NCBI GenBank assembly: GCA_043744235.1
Contig: JAYTVB010000046.1
Location: forward strand, 41,026-105,025
DNA: 64,000 nucleotides
Source of the DNA: Cyclobacteriaceae bacterium
GTDB lineage: Bacteria > Bacteroidota > Bacteroidia > Cytophagales > Cyclobacteriaceae
Direction of reading: 5' to 3'
The notes under the pieces were generated by a model. The model saw only the letters and a program-made list of their open reading frames with translations, was not told the DNA's origin and ran no database searches. Positions within the stretch are counted from its first letter, which is position 1. Each line of letters starts with the position of its first letter. Both the position numbers and the translations under genes were made by a program. Positions 34,342 through 43,895 of this stretch are shown here, piece by piece.

Positions 34342-37300
34342 ATGAAGAGACTGACCTGGAAGAACGCGGCAATGGCTGCGGTGGGTTTGATTATCCTTGC
34401 TGCAGCAATCGTTTATTTTAGAACGGGCACCAGCCGTGACCTCGGCGTGAAAACGGTCGATCCGGCCTTTGGAGAGTATGTCTCTTCCTACACTTCCGGG
34501 GTTGTCAGTTCGGGTTCACCCATCCGCATTGCCCTTTCCCGGGATGTGGTCGAATTTGAGGCATTGGGGGAGACTTCCATCAAATTGTTTGACTTCAGCC
34601 CCGCGATGAAGGGCACAACAGTCTGGATCGATCAGCACACGGTTGAATTTCGTCCCGACGCCCGGTGGTCATCCGGACAGGTGTATGAAGCAGCGTTCAA
34701 CCTGGGCAGGATCATGGAGGTTCCCAAAAACCTGGCATTGTTCGGGTACTCTTTTCAGATCATTCCTCAGAACTTCGAACTGACGGTGGATAATGTTTCC
34801 TCCGTTTCCCGGACCGAACTAAGCCTTCAGAAAGTGGACGGTATGATCCTCACTGCCGACTTCGCCGAAGGTGCGGCCGTTGAGAAAATGCTGACCGCCA
34901 GCCAGGAAGGAAAGGCCCTGCCCGTCACCTGGGCCCACACCGGTGAGGGTAAGCGACATGCTTTTACCGTCGGGGAAGTGCTTCGAAAAGACAGAGCCAG
35001 TATGGTGAATCTTGCCGTCGCCGGATCGGTGCTGGGCGTTGATCAGCAAGACAAGCGTGAGGTTGAAATTGCGGCACTGGGAGATTTTAAGGTCACGGTG
35101 GTGAGGGTTGAACAAAGCGGTAACCAGCATGTCGTCCTGCAGTTTTCAGACCCGTTGAGTGAGAAACAAAACCTGGAAGGCCTTATTTCCATTTCAGACA
35201 TCCCGTCAGTGGATTTTGAGATCAAAGACAATGAAATAAGAATCTATCCGCCTGTTCGCCAGACAGGAACCAAAACCCTGACACTCTCCGCGGGGATCAG
35301 GAACGTGCTGAACTACAAGATGGCACAGGGAGAATCATTTGATGTCACCTTTGAGCAATTGTCGCCTTCCGTGCGGTTTCTGGGGAAAGGCAATATCATA
35401 CCCTCTTCAGGCGAATTGGTTTTGCCTTTTGAGGCCGTCAACCTTAAAGCTGTCGATATACAAATCATTAAGGTGTATGAGCGAAATGTACTGCAGTTCC
35501 TCCAGGTCAATGAGCTTGACGGGAGTTCCGAACTGCGAAGGGTAGGCATGCCTGTGGTGAAGAAGATGGTGTCGCTTGAAAGCAGCGGAGTAGCAGACCT
35601 GGGAAAGTGGAACCGCTTTACGCTCGATCTCTCTCAATACATGAACCCGGAGCCAGGTGCGATCTACCAGGTGGGCGTGAGCTTTAAAAGAAGTTACTCC
35701 ATGTTTGACTGCTCTGGCGAAGCCGATGCCGGCAGTGAAAGCCAGCCTGACGATGAAGTTTGGGATCAGGAATCAGGAGAGTCAAGCGCCTGGGATTCCT
35801 ATGAAGAGTACTATTATGGCGAAGACTATGACTGGGAGCAGCGCGACAATCCCTGTCACTCATCCTACTACACTGGCAACCGCAACATCAGGCGTAACGT
35901 GATCGCCTCCGACCTGGGCATGATTGCCAAGCGGGGTGGTGATGGCGCCACCACGGTTTTTGTTAACGACCTCAAGACAACCAAACCTCAAAGCGGCGTC
36001 ACGTTGGAGTTGTACGACTTCCAGCAGCAGTTGCTTGGGACAGCCACTTCGGGCCCCGACGGCAAGGCGGTAATCAGTTCCAGGCAAAGTCCATTCGCAC
36101 TGGTAGCCAGGAATGGAACGCAGCGCGGCTACCTGAAGTTGCAGGATGGAGAGTCCCTTTCACTCAGCAGCTTTGATGTGGGAGGGGAGCAGGTAGACAG
36201 CGGGTTAAAAGGATTTCTGTATGGTGAGCGGGGCGTATGGCGCCCGGGTGATTCGTTGTACCTCACCTTTCTGCTTGAAGACAAACTAAAACTCCTTCCT
36301 CCAACTCACCCTGTCGTCATGGAACTGCAGAACCCCCAGGGTCAGGTGGCCCAGCGGCTGGTGCGGTCCTCCTCAGAGAACGGCTTCTACAAATTTGCCA
36401 CAGCAACGCCGGCGGATGCGCCAACCGGCAACTGGACGGCACGCGTTAAAGTCGGCGGGGCCCTGTTCACGCAAACGGTGAAGATTGAAACCATCAAACC
36501 GAACCGGCTCAAGATCAACCTGAATTTCGGAAAGGAGAAGATAACGGCGGGTGATAACAATGTGTCCGGCAAGCTTCATGTAAACTGGCTGGCCGGTTCG
36601 CCGGGAAGAAACCTCAAGGCGGAGTTTGAAGTGGTGCTGACAAAGGCCCAGACGAAGTTTGAGAAATATCCTGACTATGTATTTGATGATCCTTCCAGGG
36701 ATATCTCCGGTACGACCAAGTCAATTTTTGAAGGGTTCACCAATGATGACGGCGACGCCACCGTCAATGCAACACTGGAAGTGGAGGGCTCCCCGGCCGG
36801 CATGCTCAACGCCATCTTCCGCGGCAAAGTTTTTGAAGAAAGCGGAAACTTCAGCACTGACCGGTTCAGTCTTCCATTTTATCCTTACACCTCATTTACC
36901 GGAATCCGTTTGCCACAAGGCGATAAGGCCCGTGGCATGCTCCTGACCGATACCACCCATCGCGTGGATGTGGTCACGGTGGATGCCGACGGCAACGGGG
37001 TAAGCCGCGACAACGTTGAGGTTACCCTGTCAAAGCTGGAGTGGCGCTGGTGGTGGGATAATTCCGAAGACAACGCAAATTTCATGTCGGGTGAGAATTC
37101 AACGCCGCTCGCATCAGGAAAAATAAAGACAACCAACGGCAAAGGCTCGTGGAACTTCAAGATCAAGTACCCTGAGTGGGGAAGGTACCTGGTTCGTGCC
37201 ACAGACCCGGTATCGGGTCACAGCACCGCAAAAATAGTCTACATCGACTGGCCGGGCTGGGCCGGAAGGTCGCGCAATGAATCGCAAGGCGCTGCGATAC

Positions 37301-39906
37301 TCTCCTTTTCTTCGGACAAGCCCGTGTATAACATTGGTGAGAAGGCGACCCTGGTCATACCCGGAAGTGATCAGGGCAGGGCACTGATCAGCGTGGAAAG
37401 CGGAAGCAAGGTGATCGACTCCTGGTGGCTGGAGACGCAGAAGGGTGACAACCGCTTCAGCTTTGACATCAAGCCGGAGATGACACCGAACATTTTCGTC
37501 AACATTACGCTGTTGCAGCCCCACGCTCAAACCATCAATGACCTGCCCATCCGCATGTATGGCGTAATCCCCTTGTCGGTGGAGGATCCCAACACGCACC
37601 TTCATCCGGTGCTGACCATGCCCGATGTATTGGAGCCTGGTCAGGAAGTGGTGATTAAAGTGTCCGAGCAATCGAACAGGAAGATGACCTACACGCTGGC
37701 CCTGGTCGATGAGGGATTGTTGGACATCACACGCTATAAAACCCCTGATGCCTGGGCACTGTTCTATGCGAGGGAGGCCCTGGGTGTAAAAACCTGGGAC
37801 CTGTATGATGCCGTCATGGGCGCCTTTGGCGGAAAGATCGAGCGGCTCCTGGCCATTGGAGGAGACATGATGGCCACAAGCAAGGAAGATGACGCCAAGG
37901 CAAACCGCTTCAAGCCCGTGGTTAAATTCCTGGGTCCTTTCACACTGGATGGAAAGAGCAATGAACACCGCTTCATTATGCCGCAGTATATCGGTTCTGT
38001 CAAAACCATGGTCGTAGCCGGCTATGATGGGGCATATGGCAGTGCTGAAAAAGCCACGCCGGTTCGCAAACCACTCATGGTCCTGGCCACGCTTCCGCGG
38101 GTGCTCGGCCCCGGAGAAGTCTTAAAACTTCCGGTCACCCTGTTCAGCATGGAGAAGAGCATCAGGAATGTAAAAGTGGAAGTGAAAGTGTCTGGACCCG
38201 TTTCCCTTTCAGCCGAAGCATCACGGTCCGTGACCATGGACAAGGAGGATCTCACTACTGACTTTGAACTGTCAGTCAAAAATGAGACAGGCAGAGCGAG
38301 GATTGAAGTCTCAGCCTCGGCGGGAAATTTCAGGGCCACTGATGTTATTGACATTGAAGTACGGAATCCCAACCCGCCGGTAACCAAAGTTTTGGAAGCG
38401 TTGCTGGAGCCTGGAAAGGATTGGCGCGGGAATGTAATCCCTGTTGGAATGGCCGGGACGAATACGGCCATGCTTGAGGTATCCAGCCTTCCGCCCATCA
38501 ACCTGGGTCAGCGCCTTCGATACCTGATGCAATATCCGTATGGCTGCATTGAACAAACCACGTCTGCAGTATTTCCTCAACTCTACCTTGACCAGGTGAG
38601 GATGCTGACGGAAGAAGAAAAGGTCATGACACAGCGAAATGTCAGGGCAGCGATTGACCGGCTGAAATCATTTATGACGCGGGATGGAGGTTTTGCCTAT
38701 TGGCCGGGCGGCCAGGATTCTGAAAGCTGGGGCTCAACCTATGCAGGACATTTTCTGGTCGAGGCTGAAGCCAAAGGGTATTTTGTTCCCAGCGACATGA
38801 TCAGGAAATGGAAAAAGTACCAGCGAAGCAAGTCCGTTGAGTGGAGAAAGAACAAGGAACTTCAAAGCAGCGAATTGATCCAGGCCTATCGACTGTATAC
38901 ACTTGCCCTGGCTGGAGATGCTGACCTGGCATCGATGAACCGAATGCGCGAGATGAGCAACCAGCCCTTGACCGCGTCGTGGATGCTGGCTGCGGCGTAC
39001 AGTAAGGCGGGACAGCCCGAAGCGGCCAGGCAGCTTGTGGCCAACTTGCCTCAGGCGGTGAAGCCGTACCAGGAAATGGCATACTCCTATGGATCCGATG
39101 TGCGCGATAAAGCCATCATATTGGAGACGTTATTGCTGATGGGTGATCGCACCAAGGGCTTTGAGCTGGTGAAGGAAATATCTGCCTCGCTGAGCAATGC
39201 CAATGTGTGGATGAGTACGCAGTCGGTGGCCTGGAGTTTGAAATCGGTCAGCATGTTTGCCGGTGCAGAAAAGAAGGGAGCGCTGAAGTTCAGTTATGTG
39301 TATAATGGCAAGAGCACTTCAGTAAGCACGGATTTGCCTTTTGCCCAGATTGCGCTTTCAATGAACGCGATCAAAGCCGGAATACTGCATGTTGAAAGCC
39401 AAAGCGTCGGCACTTGCTTCCTCCGCGTAATTACCGAAGGCGTTCCGGCCCGCGGCGCAGAGGATGAGGCAAACAACAACCTGATGATGAAGGCAACCTA
39501 TACTTCGGCCGATGGCACCAGCATTGATCCCGCCAGTCTTGATCAGGGAACTGAGTTCATCGCCGTCGTTACAGTTTCCAATCCGGGTGCGCGTGGAGCC
39601 TACAAGAACCTGGCCCTCAACCAGACTTTTCCTTCCGGATGGGAATTGAATAACCTGAGACTCGATGAAGCGGAAGAAAAATTGGGCGGTGACAAGGCCA
39701 CCTACCAGGATATCCGGGACGACCGTGTTTATAGTTATTTTGACCTGGGGCCTGGCCAAAAGAAGACATTTAAAATCATGCTGACGGCCACGTATGCGGG
39801 AACCTACTACCTCCCTGCATTCAGTTGTGAAGCCATGTACGACAAAGGTGTTTTTGCGAGGTCTAAGGGAAAAATTGTTACTGTGACCAAAAAGGCCAGT
39901 CAATAG
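34342..39906 (+). CDS. alpha-2-macroglobulin family protein with intact thioester motif
   Basis: 1854 aa with an N-terminal membrane anchor or signal. Repeated MG-domain-like architecture. Thioester YPYGCIEQ, with CIEQ at 38545-38556. Confidence 0.9.
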   Translation: MKRLTWKNAAMAAVGLIILAAAIVYFRTGTSRDLGVKTVDPAFGEYVSSYTSGVVSSGSPIRIALSRDVVEFEALGETSIKLFDFSPAMKGTTVWIDQHTVEFRPDARWSSGQVYEAAFNLGRIMEVPKNLALFGYSFQIIPQNFELTVDNVSSVSRTELSLQKVDGMILTADFAEGAAVEKMLTASQEGKALPVTWAHTGEGKRHAFTVGEVLRKDRASMVNLAVAGSVLGVDQQDKREVEIAALGDFKVTVVRVEQSGNQHVVLQFSDPLSEKQNLEGLISISDIPSVDFEIKDNEIRIYPPVRQTGTKTLTLSAGIRNVLNYKMAQGESFDVTFEQLSPSVRFLGKGNIIPSSGELVLPFEAVNLKAVDIQIIKVYERNVLQFLQVNELDGSSELRRVGMPVVKKMVSLESSGVADLGKWNRFTLDLSQYMNPEPGAIYQVGVSFKRSYSMFDCSGEADAGSESQPDDEVWDQESGESSAWDSYEEYYYGEDYDWEQRDNPCHSSYYTGNRNIRRNVIASDLGMIAKRGGDGATTVFVNDLKTTKPQSGVTLELYDFQQQLLGTATSGPDGKAVISSRQSPFALVARNGTQRGYLKLQDGESLSLSSFDVGGEQVDSGLKGFLYGERGVWRPGDSLYLTFLLEDKLKLLPPTHPVVMELQNPQGQVAQRLVRSSSENGFYKFATATPADAPTGNWTARVKVGGALFTQTVKIETIKPNRLKINLNFGKEKITAGDNNVSGKLHVNWLAGSPGRNLKAEFEVVLTKAQTKFEKYPDYVFDDPSRDISGTTKSIFEGFTNDDGDATVNATLEVEGSPAGMLNAIFRGKVFEESGNFSTDRFSLPFYPYTSFTGIRLPQGDKARGMLLTDTTHRVDVVTVDADGNGVSRDNVEVTLSKLEWRWWWDNSEDNANFMSGENSTPLASGKIKTTNGKGSWNFKIKYPEWGRYLVRATDPVSGHSTAKIVYIDWPGWAGRSRNESQGAAILSFSSDKPVYNIGEKATLVIPGSDQGRALISVESGSKVIDSWWLETQKGDNRFSFDIKPEMTPNIFVNITLLQPHAQTINDLPIRMYGVIPLSVEDPNTHLHPVLTMPDVLEPGQEVVIKVSEQSNRKMTYTLALVDEGLLDITRYKTPDAWALFYAREALGVKTWDLYDAVMGAFGGKIERLLAIGGDMMATSKEDDAKANRFKPVVKFLGPFTLDGKSNEHRFIMPQYIGSVKTMVVAGYDGAYGSAEKATPVRKPLMVLATLPRVLGPGEVLKLPVTLFSMEKSIRNVKVEVKVSGPVSLSAEASRSVTMDKEDLTTDFELSVKNETGRARIEVSASAGNFRATDVIDIEVRNPNPPVTKVLEALLEPGKDWRGNVIPVGMAGTNTAMLEVSSLPPINLGQRLRYLMQYPYGCIEQTTSAVFPQLYLDQVRMLTEEEKVMTQRNVRAAIDRLKSFMTRDGGFAYWPGGQDSESWGSTYAGHFLVEAEAKGYFVPSDMIRKWKKYQRSKSVEWRKNKELQSSELIQAYRLYTLALAGDADLASMNRMREMSNQPLTASWMLAAAYSKAGQPEAARQLVANLPQAVKPYQEMAYSYGSDVRDKAIILETLLLMGDRTKGFELVKEISASLSNANVWMSTQSVAWSLKSVSMFAGAEKKGALKFSYVYNGKSTSVSTDLPFAQIALSMNAIKAGILHVESQSVGTCFLRVITEGVPARGAEDEANNNLMMKATYTSADGTSIDPASLDQGTEFIAVVTVSNPGARGAYKNLALNQTFPSGWELNNLRLDEAEEKLGGDKATYQDIRDDRVYSYFDLGPGQKKTFKIMLTATYAGTYYLPAFSCEAMYDKGVFARSKGKIVTVTKKASQ

Positions 39907-40071
39907 CAGGAGGAACAATTTGTTTCCTAAAGTGTTCTTTAAGGCGAGCTGCTTCAAAAATGACGCAGGTCATAGGAGCAGAAAAATGGGTTTCTGTATT
40001 TGACATGAATTGGGACTTTGTCCCAGACTTACTATCATTTTCTTCGTAATTTTGACCCTTTATATTCAAAA

Positions 40072-41082
40072 ATGATCGCAACAACCGACTTCCGCTTCTC
40101 TACCGGACCTGAACCGCATCGTGGCCGCACCCGTGAAATAATGACCAAACACCCCCATGTGAAGGACCTGATGGGGAAAAACCCGGCTACTTTCCTGGTT
40201 ATTCTGGGCCTTGTCGGAGGTATGGTCGGTGGCGCCTGGCTGCTGCGCGATGCCTCCTGGTGGGTTGTGCTGGCTGCAGCTTACCTCGGTGGCGCGTTTG
40301 CCAACCATGCCCTTTTTGTAATGATACACGAGTGTACGCACCACTTATTGTTCAAGAAGAAAGCGCCAAACCTCATCGCCGCCATCATTGCCAATTTGCC
40401 GCATACCCTTCCCAGCGCCGCCTCCTTTGTTCGCTACCACATCAAGCACCACTCCTTTCAGGGTGTGCATGAGCTGGATGCCGATCTTCCGAACTATTGG
40501 GAAGCAAAACTCATCAACAACTCGATTTTTGGAAAGGCAGTATGGCTGCTTTTATTCCCGCTTTTCCAGGCTTTCCGCATTACGCGGCTCAGGGAAATCA
40601 AACCCGTTGACGGCTGGATCATCACCAACTGGGTTGTTCAGATTGCATTCAATGTGGCCATCTGGGTCTTCTTTGGACCCAAGGCGTTCTTCTTCCTGTT
40701 GCTGAGTTTCTTCTTCTCCGTTGGACTGCACCCGCTGGGCGCAAGGTGGATCCAGGAACACTATCTTACGCTGGATGAAAAACAGGAAACCTACAGCTAC
40801 TATGGTCCGCTCAATGCAGTAGCCTTCAACGTCGGCTTCCACAATGAGCACCATGATTTTCCATCGATACCCTGGAACAAACTGCCTGATTTGAAAAAAG
40901 AAGCGCCAGAGTATTATGATTCCCTGAAATACCACAAGTCCTGGACGAATTTGTTTTTCAGGTTCCTGTTCGACAAGAATATTTCCTTGTACAGCCGTAT
41001 CATCAGGCAGGAGCGGGGTAAGGTTGCGCTCACGGATGAGTCCAAACCTGACAGGGAAATGGTGTTGGAAGACAAGGCCTGA
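40072..41082 (+). CDS. sphingolipid Delta4-desaturase (DEGS/Des1)-like fatty acid desaturase
   Basis: His boxes HECTHH, HIKHH and HNEHHDFP. N-terminal DFRFSTGPEPHRGRTREIMTKHPHVKDL resembles the Lipid_DES signature. Also has an ETYSYYGPLN block. An alternative start exists at 40018. Confidence 0.8.
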   Translation: MIATTDFRFSTGPEPHRGRTREIMTKHPHVKDLMGKNPATFLVILGLVGGMVGGAWLLRDASWWVVLAAAYLGGAFANHALFVMIHECTHHLLFKKKAPNLIAAIIANLPHTLPSAASFVRYHIKHHSFQGVHELDADLPNYWEAKLINNSIFGKAVWLLLFPLFQAFRITRLREIKPVDGWIITNWVVQIAFNVAIWVFFGPKAFFFLLLSFFFSVGLHPLGARWIQEHYLTLDEKQETYSYYGPLNAVAFNVGFHNEHHDFPSIPWNKLPDLKKEAPEYYDSLKYHKSWTNLFFRFLFDKNISLYSRIIRQERGKVALTDESKPDREMVLEDKA

Positions 41083-41097
41083 CCAATCGATCGGATC

Positions 41098-41535
41098 ATG
41101 AACAGAAAACTGTTTTTACTGGTCGCATGGCTGATCCAATGTGGCGCGTCCTATGCCCAGACAGTCTCGCGCGAAGAGCAGCTTGTTCTTGACCTCAGCA
41201 GGAAGAAGTTCGACTGGCTGATTTCAAAACAATACGATTCACTCAACAACTTCATGGATGACCGAATCCAGTACATTCATTCCAATGGCTGGACACAAGG
41301 CAAGAAGGAGATTATCGAAGACCTGAAATCAGGTAAACTCAATTATCAGAAGGTCACGTTGAAAGAAACCAAAATCCGGATCTATGGCGAGTCGGCTGTT
41401 GTTACGGGCTTGGGAACATTTGAAGGCATTACCGATGGGAAGCCGTTTGCCATGGACCTCCGCTTTACCGAAGTATATATCAAATCCGGAACTCACTGGA
41501 AGCTGGCATCGCGCCACGCTAATCGAATGCCATGA
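41098..41535 (+). CDS. SnoaL-like / DUF4440 (NTF2-fold) protein with signal peptide
   Basis: 145 aa. Signal MNRKLFLLVAWLIQCGASYAQ. The call rests on size and pattern only. Confidence 0.5.
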   Translation: MNRKLFLLVAWLIQCGASYAQTVSREEQLVLDLSRKKFDWLISKQYDSLNNFMDDRIQYIHSNGWTQGKKEIIEDLKSGKLNYQKVTLKETKIRIYGESAVVTGLGTFEGITDGKPFAMDLRFTEVYIKSGTHWKLASRHANRMP

Positions 41536-43895
41536 AGCTTGACGTTGCCCCGGCTAAACTTGTTTCCCTAACAGCCGGCGCATTCTTATTCACTGCCTAT
41601 TTCTTTTCATTACCCTCACGGCTTTTCAACAATCCTTATTCAACGGTGCTGGAAGACCGCTCGGGTCAGCTGTTGTCCGCCTCGATAGCGCCGGATGGAC
41701 AATGGCGTTTTCCGGAAGGAAGCCGGGTGAATGAAAAATTCGAAAAGGCGATTGTGGCGTTTGAGGACAAAAGGTTCTGGTCGCATCCGGGATTCGATCC
41801 ACTGGCGATGGCGCGGGCTCTCCGACAAAATTTCCGTTCGGGCCGGATCGTGAGCGGCGGGAGCACCCTCACCATGCAGGTAATCCGGCTGTCCCGGCAA
41901 GATCCATCCCGATCGGTGCTGAAGAAACTATACGAGACCATTTTAGCGACCAGGATGGAGTTTCGTTACACCAAGAAGGAAATCCTGGGGCTCTATGCTG
42001 CCCATGCACCATTTGGAGGAAACGTCGTTGGACTGGAAGCGGCATGTTGGCGGTACTTTGGCGTTGGGTCAGTTGAATTGTCCTGGGCTGAGGCAGCCCT
42101 GCTCGCGGTCTTACCCAATAACCCCTCATTGATTCACCTGTCTCGCAACCGTGAAACCCTTCGGTTGAAGCGAAACCGTTTACTACTCAGGCTGCTCAAG
42201 CAAGATGAGCTGGACTCATTGAGCTATACGCTGGCCGTGGCGGAGCCCTTGCCGGGAAAACCCCAGCGGCTGCCAAGGCTTGCCAGTCACCTCCTGGATC
42301 GGGTGACCCGGGAAGGCTTTGCCCAGCAGCTTGTCCGGTCTTCCATCGACCGCGGCTTGCAGGAGCGGGTGGAGCAAATGGTAGAGGACCACCATCAGCG
42401 ATTGAAATCCAACCAGATTCACAATGCCGCCGCGCTCATACTGGATGTGCGAACAGGGGAGGCCCTGGCTTACATTGGAAATGCAAGGGCGGGGATAGAT
42501 CATGAAGAACAGGTTGATATTGTACGCGCACCGCGAAGCACCGGAAGCATTCTTAAACCGTTTCTTTATGCGGCCATGATGAATGAGGGGAAATTGTTGC
42601 CCCGGACGCTGGTGCCTGATGTACCCACCTTGCTGGGTGGATTTGCGCCAAAGAATTTTTCAAAACAATTTGATGGTGCTGTTCCCGCCGATCAGGCATT
42701 GATCCGCTCACTCAATGTCCCCGCAGTGTACGAACTGAAAGAGTACCGGTATGAAAAGTTTTACAACCTGCTTCAGCAAATGGGAATGACCACGCTTCTA
42801 CAGTCACCTGATCACTATGGGCTTTCATTGGTCCTGGGTGGCGCCGAAGGAACATTGTGGGACATCACGGGCTTGTACGCGTCAGCGGCGCGAACGCTCA
42901 ATGAATACTTTGAGCATCCTGGTAAAGACCGGTACCAAAGAGAAGATTTTCACGCGCCGGTTTTTCGGCTGCAGGACTCATCTTTTCATCAGCAGTCGTC
43001 GGAACCGAACTCATATCTCAATGCCGCGGCCTTGTGGATTACCTTCGAGGCGCTCAAAGAACTGTACCGGCCGGGCGAGGAAACCGGGTGGCAGCATTTT
43101 GGCAGTTCGAAGACCATAGCCTGGAAGACAGGCACGAGTTTTGGGTTTCGGGACGGATGGGCCATCGGCGTTAATCCATCCTACGCGGTTGGTGTTTGGG
43201 TGGGCAATGCTGATGGAGAAGGACGTCCGGGGTTGACAGGCACGGAAGCGGCCGCCCCGTTGCTGTTTGATATTTTTTCTTCGTTACCCGGAAACCCCTG
43301 GTTCCGTCAGCCCAATTCGGACTTGATAGAAGTGACGGTCTGCCGGAGGAGTGGTCAGCGGATCTCCTCCTTTTGCGAAGAATCGGATAGGGTCCTGATT
43401 CCGTTGGCAGGACTCTCAACGCCGGCATGCCAGTATCATCAGGCAGTTCATTTGTCGTGGGATGGCAAATACCGTGTGCATGGAGATTGCGCCCCGGTGG
43501 ACAAAATGAAAACCATCAATTGGTTTGTGTTGCCGCCCGTTCAGGAATACTATTATAAGTCCAGGAATTTGACCTACCGGCCATTGCCTCCCTACCGTCC
43601 CGATTGCATTAACCCATCAGCCACGGTCTCGATGGACCTGATCTATCCTAAGGTCAACGCCAGGATCTACCTGCCCCGCATGTTGGATGGCGGAGCCGGG
43701 GCGACCGTGTTTCAGGCAACTCACCGAAACACCGGGGCGGTCATCTATTGGCATATTGATGGGCACTATGTCGGAAGTACGAGACGGATTCACAGGCTTG
43801 CGTTGACGCCCTCTTCTGGCATCCACAGCCTGACATTGGTAGATGATTCGGGCCAATCCCTGCAACGCTCATTTACCGTCATTTCACAACATTAA
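41532..43895 (+). CDS. pbpC: penicillin-binding protein 1C
   Basis: 787 aa. GT51 motif FEDKRFWSHPGFD. Transpeptidase SxxK (STGSILKP) and KTGTS. Long PBP1C-type C-terminal domain. It overlaps the upstream stop. Confidence 0.9.
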   Translation: MKLDVAPAKLVSLTAGAFLFTAYFFSLPSRLFNNPYSTVLEDRSGQLLSASIAPDGQWRFPEGSRVNEKFEKAIVAFEDKRFWSHPGFDPLAMARALRQNFRSGRIVSGGSTLTMQVIRLSRQDPSRSVLKKLYETILATRMEFRYTKKEILGLYAAHAPFGGNVVGLEAACWRYFGVGSVELSWAEAALLAVLPNNPSLIHLSRNRETLRLKRNRLLLRLLKQDELDSLSYTLAVAEPLPGKPQRLPRLASHLLDRVTREGFAQQLVRSSIDRGLQERVEQMVEDHHQRLKSNQIHNAAALILDVRTGEALAYIGNARAGIDHEEQVDIVRAPRSTGSILKPFLYAAMMNEGKLLPRTLVPDVPTLLGGFAPKNFSKQFDGAVPADQALIRSLNVPAVYELKEYRYEKFYNLLQQMGMTTLLQSPDHYGLSLVLGGAEGTLWDITGLYASAARTLNEYFEHPGKDRYQREDFHAPVFRLQDSSFHQQSSEPNSYLNAAALWITFEALKELYRPGEETGWQHFGSSKTIAWKTGTSFGFRDGWAIGVNPSYAVGVWVGNADGEGRPGLTGTEAAAPLLFDIFSSLPGNPWFRQPNSDLIEVTVCRRSGQRISSFCEESDRVLIPLAGLSTPACQYHQAVHLSWDGKYRVHGDCAPVDKMKTINWFVLPPVQEYYYKSRNLTYRPLPPYRPDCINPSATVSMDLIYPKVNARIYLPRMLDGGAGATVFQATHRNTGAVIYWHIDGHYVGSTRRIHRLALTPSSGIHSLTLVDDSGQSLQRSFTVISQH

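What the first reader, a model, noticed from the sequence alone, without database searches (positions are those of the whole stretch)
40072..41082. Eukaryote-like dihydroceramide (sphingolipid Delta4) desaturase homolog
Seen: the three His boxes HECTHH, HIKHH and HNEHHDFP are present. The N-terminal DFRFSTGPEPHRGRTREIMTKHPHVKDLMGKNP resembles the Lipid_DES signature. The blocks LHPLG...EHY, ETYSYYGPLN, FNVGFHNEHHDFPSIP and ISLYSRI are, as far as I recall human DEGS1, colinear and nearly identical in places.

Established: many Bacteroidota make sphingolipids. The characterised bacterial pathway enzymes (Spt, ceramide synthase, reductase) do not include a DEGS-type desaturase, as far as I know.

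Inference: this organism may introduce a 4,5-trans double bond or a C4-hydroxyl, making true ceramide or phytoceramide rather than dihydroceramide. That step is not established in bacteria.
Basis: partly seen in the sequence, partly recalled or inferred. Interest (0 to 1): 0.6.

Follow-up and report, generated by a model that had tools for sequence, protein, structure and literature searches.

The report
Bacterial DEGS-type sphingoid-base desaturase
This Cytophagales bacterium carries an intact member of the enzyme family that puts the 4,5 double bond into ceramide in animals and fungi, but it belongs to a large, uncharacterised bacterial branch that probably acts on sulfonolipids and/or ceramides, a step for which no bacterial enzyme is known.

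Summary
Window 40072-41082(+) encodes an intact 336-aa membrane desaturase with the Pfam Lipid_DES N-terminal domain, the FA_desaturase core and all three His boxes. It is 42% identical over 315 residues to an animal DES1-like protein.

It is not a recent eukaryotic import. In a tree it falls in a bacterial clade, split from all named eukaryotic enzymes by a branch with SH-aLRT 100. That clade occurs in Cytophagales, Chitinophagaceae, Sphingobacteriaceae, Balneolaceae and Ignavibacteria (40 of 401 sampled Bacteroidota genomes).

It also holds a SulA-type cysteate acyltransferase, the first sulfonolipid enzyme. Both same-genus relatives that keep the desaturase (75-79% identity) have SulA but no Spt.

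My best reading is an O2-dependent C4 desaturase (possibly hydroxylase) of N-acylated long-chain bases. The likely substrates are sulfonolipids and/or dihydroceramide. C4-unsaturated capnoid bases are known (RIF-2), but I found no enzyme assigned to them.

I found no paper characterising a bacterial DEGS. First readers of this scan flagged the same kind of gene on at least seven other genomes.

The parts
40072..41082 (+). Gene for a 336-aa DEGS-family membrane di-iron desaturase (bacterial clade A).
   Evidence: More than 5000 homologues were found; the top 120 are 69-94% identical.
40081..40185 (+). Lipid_DES N-terminal domain (residues 4-38).
   Evidence: PF08557 scores 46.8 bits against a cut-off of 23. 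P15, H16, R19, I23, P28 and G35 are invariant in 19 homologues.
40327..40344 (+). His box 1, HECTHH (residues 86-91).
   Evidence: H86 and H90 are invariant.
40438..40452 (+). His box 2, HIKHH (residues 123-127).
   Evidence: H123, H126 and H127 are invariant.
40840..40854 (+). His box 3, HNEHH (residues 257-261).
   Evidence: H260 and H261 are invariant and H257 nearly so.
40047..40054 (+). TAATTTTG, which matches the Bacteroidota -7 promoter consensus TAnnTTTG. I infer it is the gene's own promoter.
   Evidence: The box is conserved in the window, G379, L037 and L043, while the flanking DNA is not. Calling it a promoter rests on my knowledge of the published consensus. No terminator-like site lies between the A2M gene and this gene, or up to pbpC.
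41098..41535 (+). Secreted DUF4440/SnoaL-like protein of 145 aa. It lies 16 nt downstream of the desaturase and overlaps the pbpC start by 4 nt. It recurs as a neighbour, but a functional link is unproven.
   Evidence: The G379 orthologue (61% identical) matches Pfam DUF4440 and SnoaL_3. The gene lies directly downstream on the same strand in 10 of 99 desaturase loci, all close Cytophagales relatives.

Best explanation
The gene encodes an O2-dependent, membrane-bound di-iron oxidase of the DEGS (sphingolipid delta4-desaturase) family.

Inferred mechanism, by homology with DEGS1/DEGS2: the His-box di-iron centre on the cytoplasmic face takes two electrons from a soluble carrier. It activates O2 and removes the C4 and C5 hydrogens of the long-chain-base part of an N-acylated 2-amino-3-hydroxy lipid. 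The product carries a 4,5 double bond; with partial rebound it could carry a C4 hydroxyl instead.

The substrates available in this organism are N-acyl-capnine sulfonolipids (made via SulA) and dihydroceramide (made via Spt, bCerS and CerR). They differ only at C1. The same-genus relatives that keep the enzyme have only the SulA route, so sulfonolipid is the more likely conserved substrate, and ceramide a second substrate here.

Shown: family membership, intact catalytic motifs, both substrate pathways in the genome, and the distribution across genomes. Inferred: regiochemistry, substrate, electron donor.
For: Family:
- Lipid_DES plus FA_desaturase, both above the Pfam cut-offs.
- The three His boxes are conserved across 19 homologues.
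- 42% identity to an animal DES1-like protein.
- The AlphaFold model (pLDDT 78.5) best matches membrane desaturase/AlkB/SCD1 folds.
- Four hydrophobic helices in the usual desaturase positions.

Ceramide route in this genome:
- Spt scores 668 bits on NF047600 (cut-off 640) and 511 bits to Sphingobacterium multivorum Spt 3A2B. It has Ala at the SulA-K281 position.
- It is followed by a GNAT-like acyltransferase, an NAD-epimerase-family reductase and a second GNAT.

Sulfonolipid route in this genome:
- The C45 alpha-oxoamine synthase scores 601 bits to A. finegoldii SulA (7U7H) and 575 bits to 'cysteate-C-fatty acyltransferase' 28EH, against 227 bits to Spt.
- It carries the diagnostic Lys.
- The genome has no bioB or bioD, so this enzyme is not BioF.

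Context and distribution:
- In G215, a second Bacteroidota DEGS clade lies in one lipid cluster with Spt, a CerR-like gene, a bCerS-like gene, a CDP-alcohol phosphatidyltransferase and a PLD-like gene.
- In the Bacteroidia sample, 8 of 13 desaturase-positive genomes have an Spt scoring 600 bits or more, against 11 of 88 negatives.
- All 13 desaturase-positive Bacteroidia genomes and all 14 Balneolaceae ones have a SulA orthologue.
- The two Ignavibacteria positives I checked, of 13, have an Spt-type enzyme with Ala.

Chemistry:
- RIF-2 of Algoriphagus has a capnoid base with a C4 double bond (10.1101/052399).
- The base fragment of flavocristamide A, m/z 348.2214, equals dehydrocapnine (PMC10501047).
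Against: - There is no biochemical or lipid data for any bacterial member.
- Clade A has no conserved operon partner from either lipid pathway.
- Most SulA-positive genomes lack the desaturase (for example family f5, 0 of 28), so it is an optional decoration and the co-occurrence is weak evidence.
- The genome counts are not phylogenetically independent.
- I could not verify that the organisms known to make unsaturated capnoid bases (Algoriphagus machipongonensis, Zobellia uliginosa) carry a PF08557 gene.
- The enzyme lies outside the clade of experimentally characterised eukaryotic enzymes, so regiochemistry and substrate could differ.
Confidence: 0.62

Rival explanations
1. Dedicated dihydroceramide delta4-desaturase. 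It acts only on Spt-derived dihydroceramide and makes true ceramide.
For: The family name and architecture fit. The genome has the Spt / bCerS-like / CerR-like cluster. Desaturase presence is enriched among Spt-positive Bacteroidia genomes, 8 of 13 against 11 of 88. The two Ignavibacteria carriers I checked have an Spt-type enzyme, and none of the 13 has a SulA orthologue.
Against: Five of 13 desaturase-positive Bacteroidia genomes have no Spt. These include both same-genus relatives, whose desaturase is 75-79% identical. Their best hit to Spt is 34-37% identical and corresponds in score to this genome's Kbl; they do have SulA. A well-conserved enzyme there needs another substrate.
Confidence: 0.15
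2. Mainly a C4-hydroxylase like DEGS2 or the bifunctional fungal enzymes. It would make phyto-type (4-hydroxy) bases rather than a double bond.
For: The family contains bifunctional desaturase/hydroxylases (DEGS2; PMC10140171 abstract). JGI names some homologues '4-desaturase/C4-monooxygenase'. Hydroxylated capnoid bases exist, as in RIF-2 and IOR-1.
Against: I know of no sequence rule that separates the two activities, so the choice cannot be made from sequence. In nine Mucilaginibacter loci a separate FA_hydroxylase-family gene sits next to the desaturase, which hints at a division of labour.
Confidence: 0.12
3. A desaturase of some other membrane lipid (an acyl chain, another aminolipid or an alkyl lipid) that merely shares ancestry with DEGS.
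For: It lies in a bacterial clade outside the characterised enzymes. It has no pathway operon in clade A. The genome has six other FA_desaturase paralogues. More distant bacterial relatives sit in varied contexts, next to Fe-S/CCG proteins or DAGK_prokar.
Against: The Lipid_DES domain is specific to this family and is conserved. Every one of the 40 desaturase-positive genomes has an NF047600 match at E <= 1e-100 or a SulA orthologue. In the 29 of them without an Spt of 600 bits or more or a SulA, I confirmed the Spt type in only two. Clade B is embedded in a ceramide gene cluster.
Confidence: 0.11

Closest known systems
Eukaryotic dihydroceramide delta4-desaturase DEGS1/Des1 (animals, fungi)
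   Same: It has the same two-domain architecture (Lipid_DES + FA_desaturase), the same three His boxes, a colinear sequence, and 42% identity to an animal DES1-like protein.
   Different: It falls in a separate, bacterial clade (SH-aLRT 100 split). Box 1 reads HECTHH, where the named eukaryotic representatives whose box 1 I read have HE[ILV]SHN. It is encoded in a bacterium. The closest relatives lack Spt, so the substrate may be a sulfonolipid.
DEGS2 and fungal bifunctional delta4-desaturase/C4-hydroxylases
   Same: Same family. Some database pipelines name homologues '4-desaturase/C4-monooxygenase'.
   Different: Nothing here shows which reaction is catalysed.
Second Bacteroidota DEGS clade (clade B: Cyclobacteriaceae MAGs including G215, Ekhidna, Balneola/Gracilimonas)
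   Same: Same architecture and the same phylum.
   Different: Clade B is only 42% identical to this protein but 49% identical to the animal enzyme. It falls on the eukaryote side of the tree. In G215 it lies in a cluster with Spt, a CerR-like gene, a bCerS-like gene, a CDP-alcohol phosphatidyltransferase and a PLD-like gene. The window's gene has no such clustering.
Bacterial ceramide pathway Spt, bCerS, CerR (Caulobacter; PMC11087976)
   Same: The genome carries an spt / GNAT-like acyltransferase / NAD-epimerase-family reductase cluster of matching composition.
   Different: The described pathway ends at (dihydro)ceramide and has no desaturase. Calling the GNAT and reductase genes bCerS and CerR rests on family type and adjacency, not on a direct comparison with the Caulobacter proteins.
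Sulfonolipid (capnine) pathway: SulA/CapB cysteate acyltransferase and CapC reductase; products sulfobacins, RIF-2, flavocristamide A
   Same: The genome has a SulA orthologue with the diagnostic Lys. Natural sulfonolipids with a C4-unsaturated capnoid base are described.
   Different: The papers I found assign no enzyme to that double bond. Linking it to this gene is my inference.

Membership tests
DEGS / sphingolipid delta4-desaturase family (Pfam Lipid_DES + FA_desaturase) | N-terminal Lipid_DES domain. | tested here: met
   PF08557 scores 46.8 bits against a cut-off of 23, at residues 4-38. It is the only such gene in the genome.
DEGS / sphingolipid delta4-desaturase family (Pfam Lipid_DES + FA_desaturase) | Membrane desaturase core with three intact His boxes. 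| tested here: met
   PF00487 scores 94.2 bits. The boxes are HECTHH, HIKHH and HNEHH and are conserved in 19 homologues.
DEGS / sphingolipid delta4-desaturase family (Pfam Lipid_DES + FA_desaturase) | Full-length colinear similarity to a eukaryotic DES1. | tested here: met
   42% identity over 315 aa, E 4e-88, to Saccoglossus DES1-like. That protein is named by annotation, not by assay.
DEGS / sphingolipid delta4-desaturase family (Pfam Lipid_DES + FA_desaturase) | Placement inside the clade that holds the experimentally characterised (eukaryotic) enzymes. | tested here: not met
   IQ-TREE on 64 rows puts an SH-aLRT 100 branch between the named animal and fungal proteins (plus clade B) and the bacterial clade holding this protein. 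It is a sister group, not a nested member.
DEGS / sphingolipid delta4-desaturase family (Pfam Lipid_DES + FA_desaturase) | Dihydroceramide is made by the same organism. | tested here: inconclusive
   This genome has the genes. They are missing in the same-genus carriers G311 and G379 and in three Chitinophagaceae carriers.
DEGS / sphingolipid delta4-desaturase family (Pfam Lipid_DES + FA_desaturase) | Catalyses C4-C5 desaturation (or C4 hydroxylation) of an N-acyl long-chain base. | not testable with these tools
   This needs lipid analysis of a knockout or an expression strain.
DEGS / sphingolipid delta4-desaturase family (Pfam Lipid_DES + FA_desaturase) | Membrane di-iron desaturase fold. 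| tested here: met
   The model has pLDDT 78.5 and pTM 0.80. The best PDB matches are two chains of chloroplast FtsHi motor complexes (8XKS_K, 8XQW_M; I did not identify the subunits), AlkB and SCD1. E-values are weak (2e-4 to 3e-2) and TM reaches 0.58. No DEGS structure is in the PDB copy.
DEGS / sphingolipid delta4-desaturase family (Pfam Lipid_DES + FA_desaturase) | Cytochrome b5-type electron donor available. | tested here: inconclusive
   One 84-aa cyt b5-like ORF exists (33 bits against a cut-off of 23.7). The same gene is found in relatives with and without the desaturase.
Acyl-lipid delta5 desaturase DesA (NCBIfam NF052548) | Score above the curated cut-off. | tested here: not met
   18.8 bits against a cut-off of 500.
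Beta-carotene ketolase CrtW (NCBIfam NF045690) | Score above the curated cut-off. | tested here: not met
   24.1 bits against a cut-off of 350.

The most novel reading that the evidence does not exclude
This bacterial DEGS clade is the missing sulfonolipid (capnoid-base) C4-desaturase. It would make the 4,5-unsaturated capnine backbone found in RIF-2 and flavocristamide-type lipids, that is, in bacterial signals that control choanoflagellate multicellularity. The same enzyme would let some Bacteroidota, Balneolaceae and Ignavibacteria make true (4E) ceramides. DEGS would then be an old bacterial invention rather than an 'early eukaryotic' one.
Probability: 0.4. Interest if true: 0.75.

Novelty: new variant of a known kind. 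Interest (0 to 1): 0.55.

Why it matters
Textbook and recent review accounts treat DEGS as a eukaryotic enzyme; PMC12993136 lists DEGS1 as 'early eukaryotic'. By my recollection, bacterial sphingolipids are mostly described as saturated dihydro forms. A conserved bacterial DEGS clade spanning three classes of Bacteroidota gives a concrete candidate for two open points:
- whether free-living bacteria make 4-unsaturated or 4-hydroxylated ceramides;
- which enzyme introduces the C4 double bond of bioactive sulfonolipids such as RIF-2.

Several carriers are cultured (Flavisolibacter ginsenosidimutans, Balneola vulgaris, Chryseosolibacter histidini, Puia dinghuensis, Chitinophaga rupis, many Mucilaginibacter), so the test is straightforward. 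It also bears on the origin of the eukaryotic sphingolipid pathway.

The gene itself is not rare. Annotation pipelines already label it 'sphingolipid delta-4 desaturase', so the novelty lies in function and context, not in its existence.

Tried and rejected
- Generic desaturase or CrtW assignment: rejected, because the NCBIfam scores are far below the cut-offs.
- PDB sequence search: no relative found.
- BioF identity for the third alpha-oxoamine synthase: rejected, because the genome has no bioB or bioD and the protein matches SulA.
- Archaeal-type cysteate synthase (TIGR03844): not found in the genome. A CapA-type (CBS-like) enzyme could not be tested for lack of a reference, so completeness of the sulfonolipid pathway is not shown.
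- Conserved operon partners of clade A, searched over 99 loci: only lineage-specific neighbours turned up. These were a 302-aa unknown protein in 30 loci, AcrB in 20, DUF4440 in 10 and FA_hydroxylase in 9.
- Cytochrome b5 as a specific partner: rejected, because it is present regardless of the desaturase.
- Neighbourhood of the third, distant GNAT-like gene (C20): no lipid genes beside a VTT/DedA-domain protein.
- Naming the organisms behind unlabeled representatives through cluster look-ups: this gave mostly metagenomic entries. Named hits came only for some.
- Presence of a PF08557 gene in Algoriphagus or Zobellia: could not be shown either way, because the lists are capped and the handles anonymous.
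- Association of a 'GNAT1-type' acyltransferase with the desaturase outside Bacteroidia (16 of 27 against 20 of 273): it depends on an arbitrary E-value threshold within a graded family, so I do not lean on it.
- Literature searches for a characterised bacterial DEGS: nothing found.

Full report
**1. The observation**

Window 40072-41082(+) is an open frame of 336 codons plus a stop. His boxes HECTHH, HIKHH and HNEHH lie at residues 86, 123 and 257. Pfam gives Lipid_DES (46.8 bits, cut-off 23, residues 4-38) and FA_desaturase (94.2 bits, cut-off 29.7). No NCBIfam equivalog fits: CrtW scores 24 against 350 and DesA 19 against 500. No PDB chain is related by sequence.

An AlphaFold model built on 19 homologues (pLDDT 78.5, pTM 0.80) has the helical membrane core. 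Its best PDB matches are two chains of chloroplast FtsHi motor complexes, AlkB and SCD1. Hydrophobic helices lie at about 37-60, 65-85 and 182-224.

The ATG at 40072 is preferred over the upstream TTG at 40018. A TAnnTTTG box, the Bacteroidota -7 consensus as I know it, sits 17-25 nt upstream of the ATG in the window, G379, L037 and L043, and the surrounding DNA is not conserved. No terminator-like site separates the gene from the downstream DUF4440 gene and pbpC.

**2. Relatives and phylogeny**

More than 5000 cluster representatives match; the top 120 are 69-94% identical. They come mostly from Cyclobacteriaceae and Cytophagales MAGs. JGI names them 'sphingolipid delta-4 desaturase' and NCBI 'fatty acid desaturase'.

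Among species-representative genomes, 590 stretches encode a relative. Named hits include Ohtaekwangia (77%), Chryseosolibacter histidini (71%), Puia, Chitinophaga rupis, Ferruginibacter, Flavisolibacter and many Mucilaginibacter (65-70%). In an even sample of 401 Bacteroidota genomes, 40 have a match at E <= 1e-30. Exact look-ups identify these as Chitinophagaceae (Flavisolibacter ginsenosidimutans), Balneolaceae (Balneola vulgaris, Gracilimonas) and Ignavibacteria, besides the Cytophagales.

A search of all representatives finds 443 clusters at E <= 1e-30. In an IQ-TREE tree of 64 rows, an SH-aLRT 100 branch separates two groups:
- (a) named animals (Saccoglossus, C. elegans, Tribolium, Nucella, two nematodes) and fungi (Hortaea, a chytrid), together with a second Bacteroidota clade, 'B' (G215, Balneola/Gracilimonas, Ekhidna);
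- (b) the clade holding this protein, 'A', together with other sequences. The two of those I looked up lie in plainly bacterial gene contexts.

The window's protein is 42% identical to the Saccoglossus enzyme. The clade B protein of G215 is 49% identical to it. This is therefore a bacterial sister branch of the eukaryotic enzymes, not a recent import. The tree is unrooted, so the deeper direction of descent is open.

**3. Substrate pathways in the genome**

The assembly (4.2 Mb, 55 contigs, estimated 100% complete) has three alpha-oxoamine synthases:
- **Kbl.**
- **Spt.** It scores 668 bits on NF047600 (cut-off 640) and 511 bits to Sphingobacterium multivorum Spt 3A2B/8GUH. On contig C33 it is followed by a 374-aa GNAT-like protein, a 338-aa NAD-epimerase-family reductase and a second GNAT that is 72% identical to the first. 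This matches the spt / bcerS / cerR composition described for bacteria (PMC11087976). I assign it by family and adjacency only.
- **A 418-aa enzyme on C45.** It scores 601 bits to PDB 7U7H and 575 bits to 28EH ('cysteate-C-fatty acyltransferase'), against 227 bits to Spt. 7U7H is A. finegoldii SulA. Its authors give Lys281 (Ala in Spt) as the distinguishing residue (PMC9304779). The C45 enzyme has Lys at that position (K280) and the genome's Spt has Ala. The genome lacks bioB and bioD, which excludes a BioF role.

The organism is thus predicted to make both ceramide-type and capnine-type lipids. An archaeal-type cysteate synthase was not found, and a CapA-type enzyme could not be tested.

**4. 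Which substrate**

In the Bacteroidia part of the sample (101 genomes), 13 carry the desaturase. Eight of those have an Spt scoring 600 bits or more, against 11 of 88 non-carriers (odds ratio 11; related genomes are not independent).

Five carriers have no Spt: both same-genus relatives (G311 and G379, desaturase 75-79% identical) and three Chitinophagaceae. Their best hit is 34-37% identical and corresponds in score to this genome's Kbl. All five have a SulA orthologue at 64-86% identity. All 13 Bacteroidia carriers and all 14 Balneolaceae carriers have SulA. SulA is also near-universal in those lineages (87 of 101 genomes in the Bacteroidia sample), so this does not discriminate.

Ignavibacteria carriers have no SulA orthologue at that threshold. 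The two I checked have an Spt-type enzyme with Ala at the diagnostic site, and Balneolaceae G216 has one of each type. Clade A therefore occurs with SulA alone, with an Spt-type enzyme alone, and with both.

The simplest reading is that the enzyme recognises the common core (2-acylamino-3-hydroxy alkane) and modifies C4/C5 whatever the C1 head group. For this genus, sulfonolipid is the conserved candidate.

The chemistry fits. RIF-2 of Algoriphagus (Cyclobacteriaceae) has a capnoid base with a C4 double bond and a C6 hydroxyl (10.1101/052399). The flavocristamide A base fragment at m/z 348.2214 (PMC10501047) equals dehydrocapnine by my calculation. The papers I found name no enzyme for these double bonds.

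**5. Gene context**

In the window the order is aro operon, A2M, desaturase, DUF4440, pbpC, SPOR/OmpA. The closest relatives have either the same order (L036, L037) or aro operon, desaturase, DUF4440, SPOR/OmpA with no A2M or pbpC (G379/L040, L043, L045).

Over 99 loci no partner is universal. DUF4440 follows in 10 loci, an FA_hydroxylase-family gene in 9 Mucilaginibacter loci, and an unknown 302-aa protein in 30.

The strongest context link concerns clade B. In G215 the gene lies between a CDP-alcohol phosphatidyltransferase and a PLD-like gene, next to Spt, a CerR-like gene, a bCerS-like gene and fatty-acid synthesis genes.

A small cyt b5-like ORF exists in the genome, but it is present in relatives with and without the desaturase.

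**6. Literature and earlier notes**

Seven full-text searches and several papers gave no characterised bacterial DEGS (39, 41, 42, 45, 46). A 2026 review lists DEGS1 as 'early eukaryotic' (PMC12993136). First readers of this scan flagged the same kind of gene on at least seven other genomes, one of them 'inside a bacterial sphingolipid operon'; none of those notes showed a follow-up.

**7. Verdict**

This is a real, intact, conserved DEGS-family gene of a bacterial clade. It is most likely a C4 desaturase (or hydroxylase) of N-acyl long-chain bases, with sulfonolipid and/or ceramide as substrate (confidence about 0.6). Novelty lies in the uncharacterised bacterial clade and the probable sulfonolipid link, not in the existence of the gene, which pipelines already label.

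Noticed in passing
window 34342-43895; L036, L037, L040, L043, L045: A2M and pbpC flank the desaturase-DUF4440 pair in the window, L036 and L037. Both are absent in G379/L040, L043 and L045, where the aro operon, desaturase, DUF4440 and SPOR/OmpA genes are contiguous. The usual A2M-pbpC pair is therefore split by, or assembled around, a conserved two-gene block.
   Followed up: partly
G000:C33:14081-18699 (L014:6082-10700): The Spt / GNAT / epimerase-family reductase / GNAT cluster is absent from the three same-genus genomes searched. It may be a recent acquisition. Two tryptophanase-like (Beta_elim_lyase) genes lie just upstream.
   Followed up: partly
G000:C45:48070-49326 (L012:1369-2625): A SulA-type cysteate acyl transferase with the diagnostic Lys stands alone between oppositely oriented genes. 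In family f5 its orthologue lies head-to-head or tail-to-tail with a GNAT-like acyltransferase, by coordinates. That would be a likely SulA / N-acyltransferase pair.
   Followed up: partly
G000:C31:131380-131571: A stand-alone cytochrome b5-like ORF of 84 aa (PF00173, 33 bits). It was found in 9 of 10 relatives tested but in only 1 of 14 control genomes. It is a possible electron donor for the seven FA_desaturase-family genes of this genome.
   Followed up: partly
G000, whole genome: No bioB above the cut-off and no bioD in a genome estimated 100% complete. The organism is probably a biotin auxotroph.
   Followed up: no
L016:4962-15384 (G215): A compact lipid cluster: Spt, CerR-like, bCerS-like, FabG, FabA/Z and two KS genes. 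On the other strand lie a CDP-alcohol phosphatidyltransferase, a clade B DEGS and a PLD-like gene. It is a candidate operon for an unsaturated phosphosphingolipid.
   Followed up: partly
L115:8001-11156; L117:8001-9373: In more distant bacterial relatives the DEGS gene is followed by an Fe-S (Fer4) protein and a CCG-domain protein, with an FA_hydroxylase gene nearby (L115). In L117 it is followed by an overlapping prokaryotic diacylglycerol kinase gene.
   Followed up: no
L064:7204-8040 and eight other Mucilaginibacter loci: An FA_hydroxylase-family (PF04116) gene lies directly downstream of the desaturase on the same strand. This hints at a two-enzyme lipid-modification unit.
   Followed up: no
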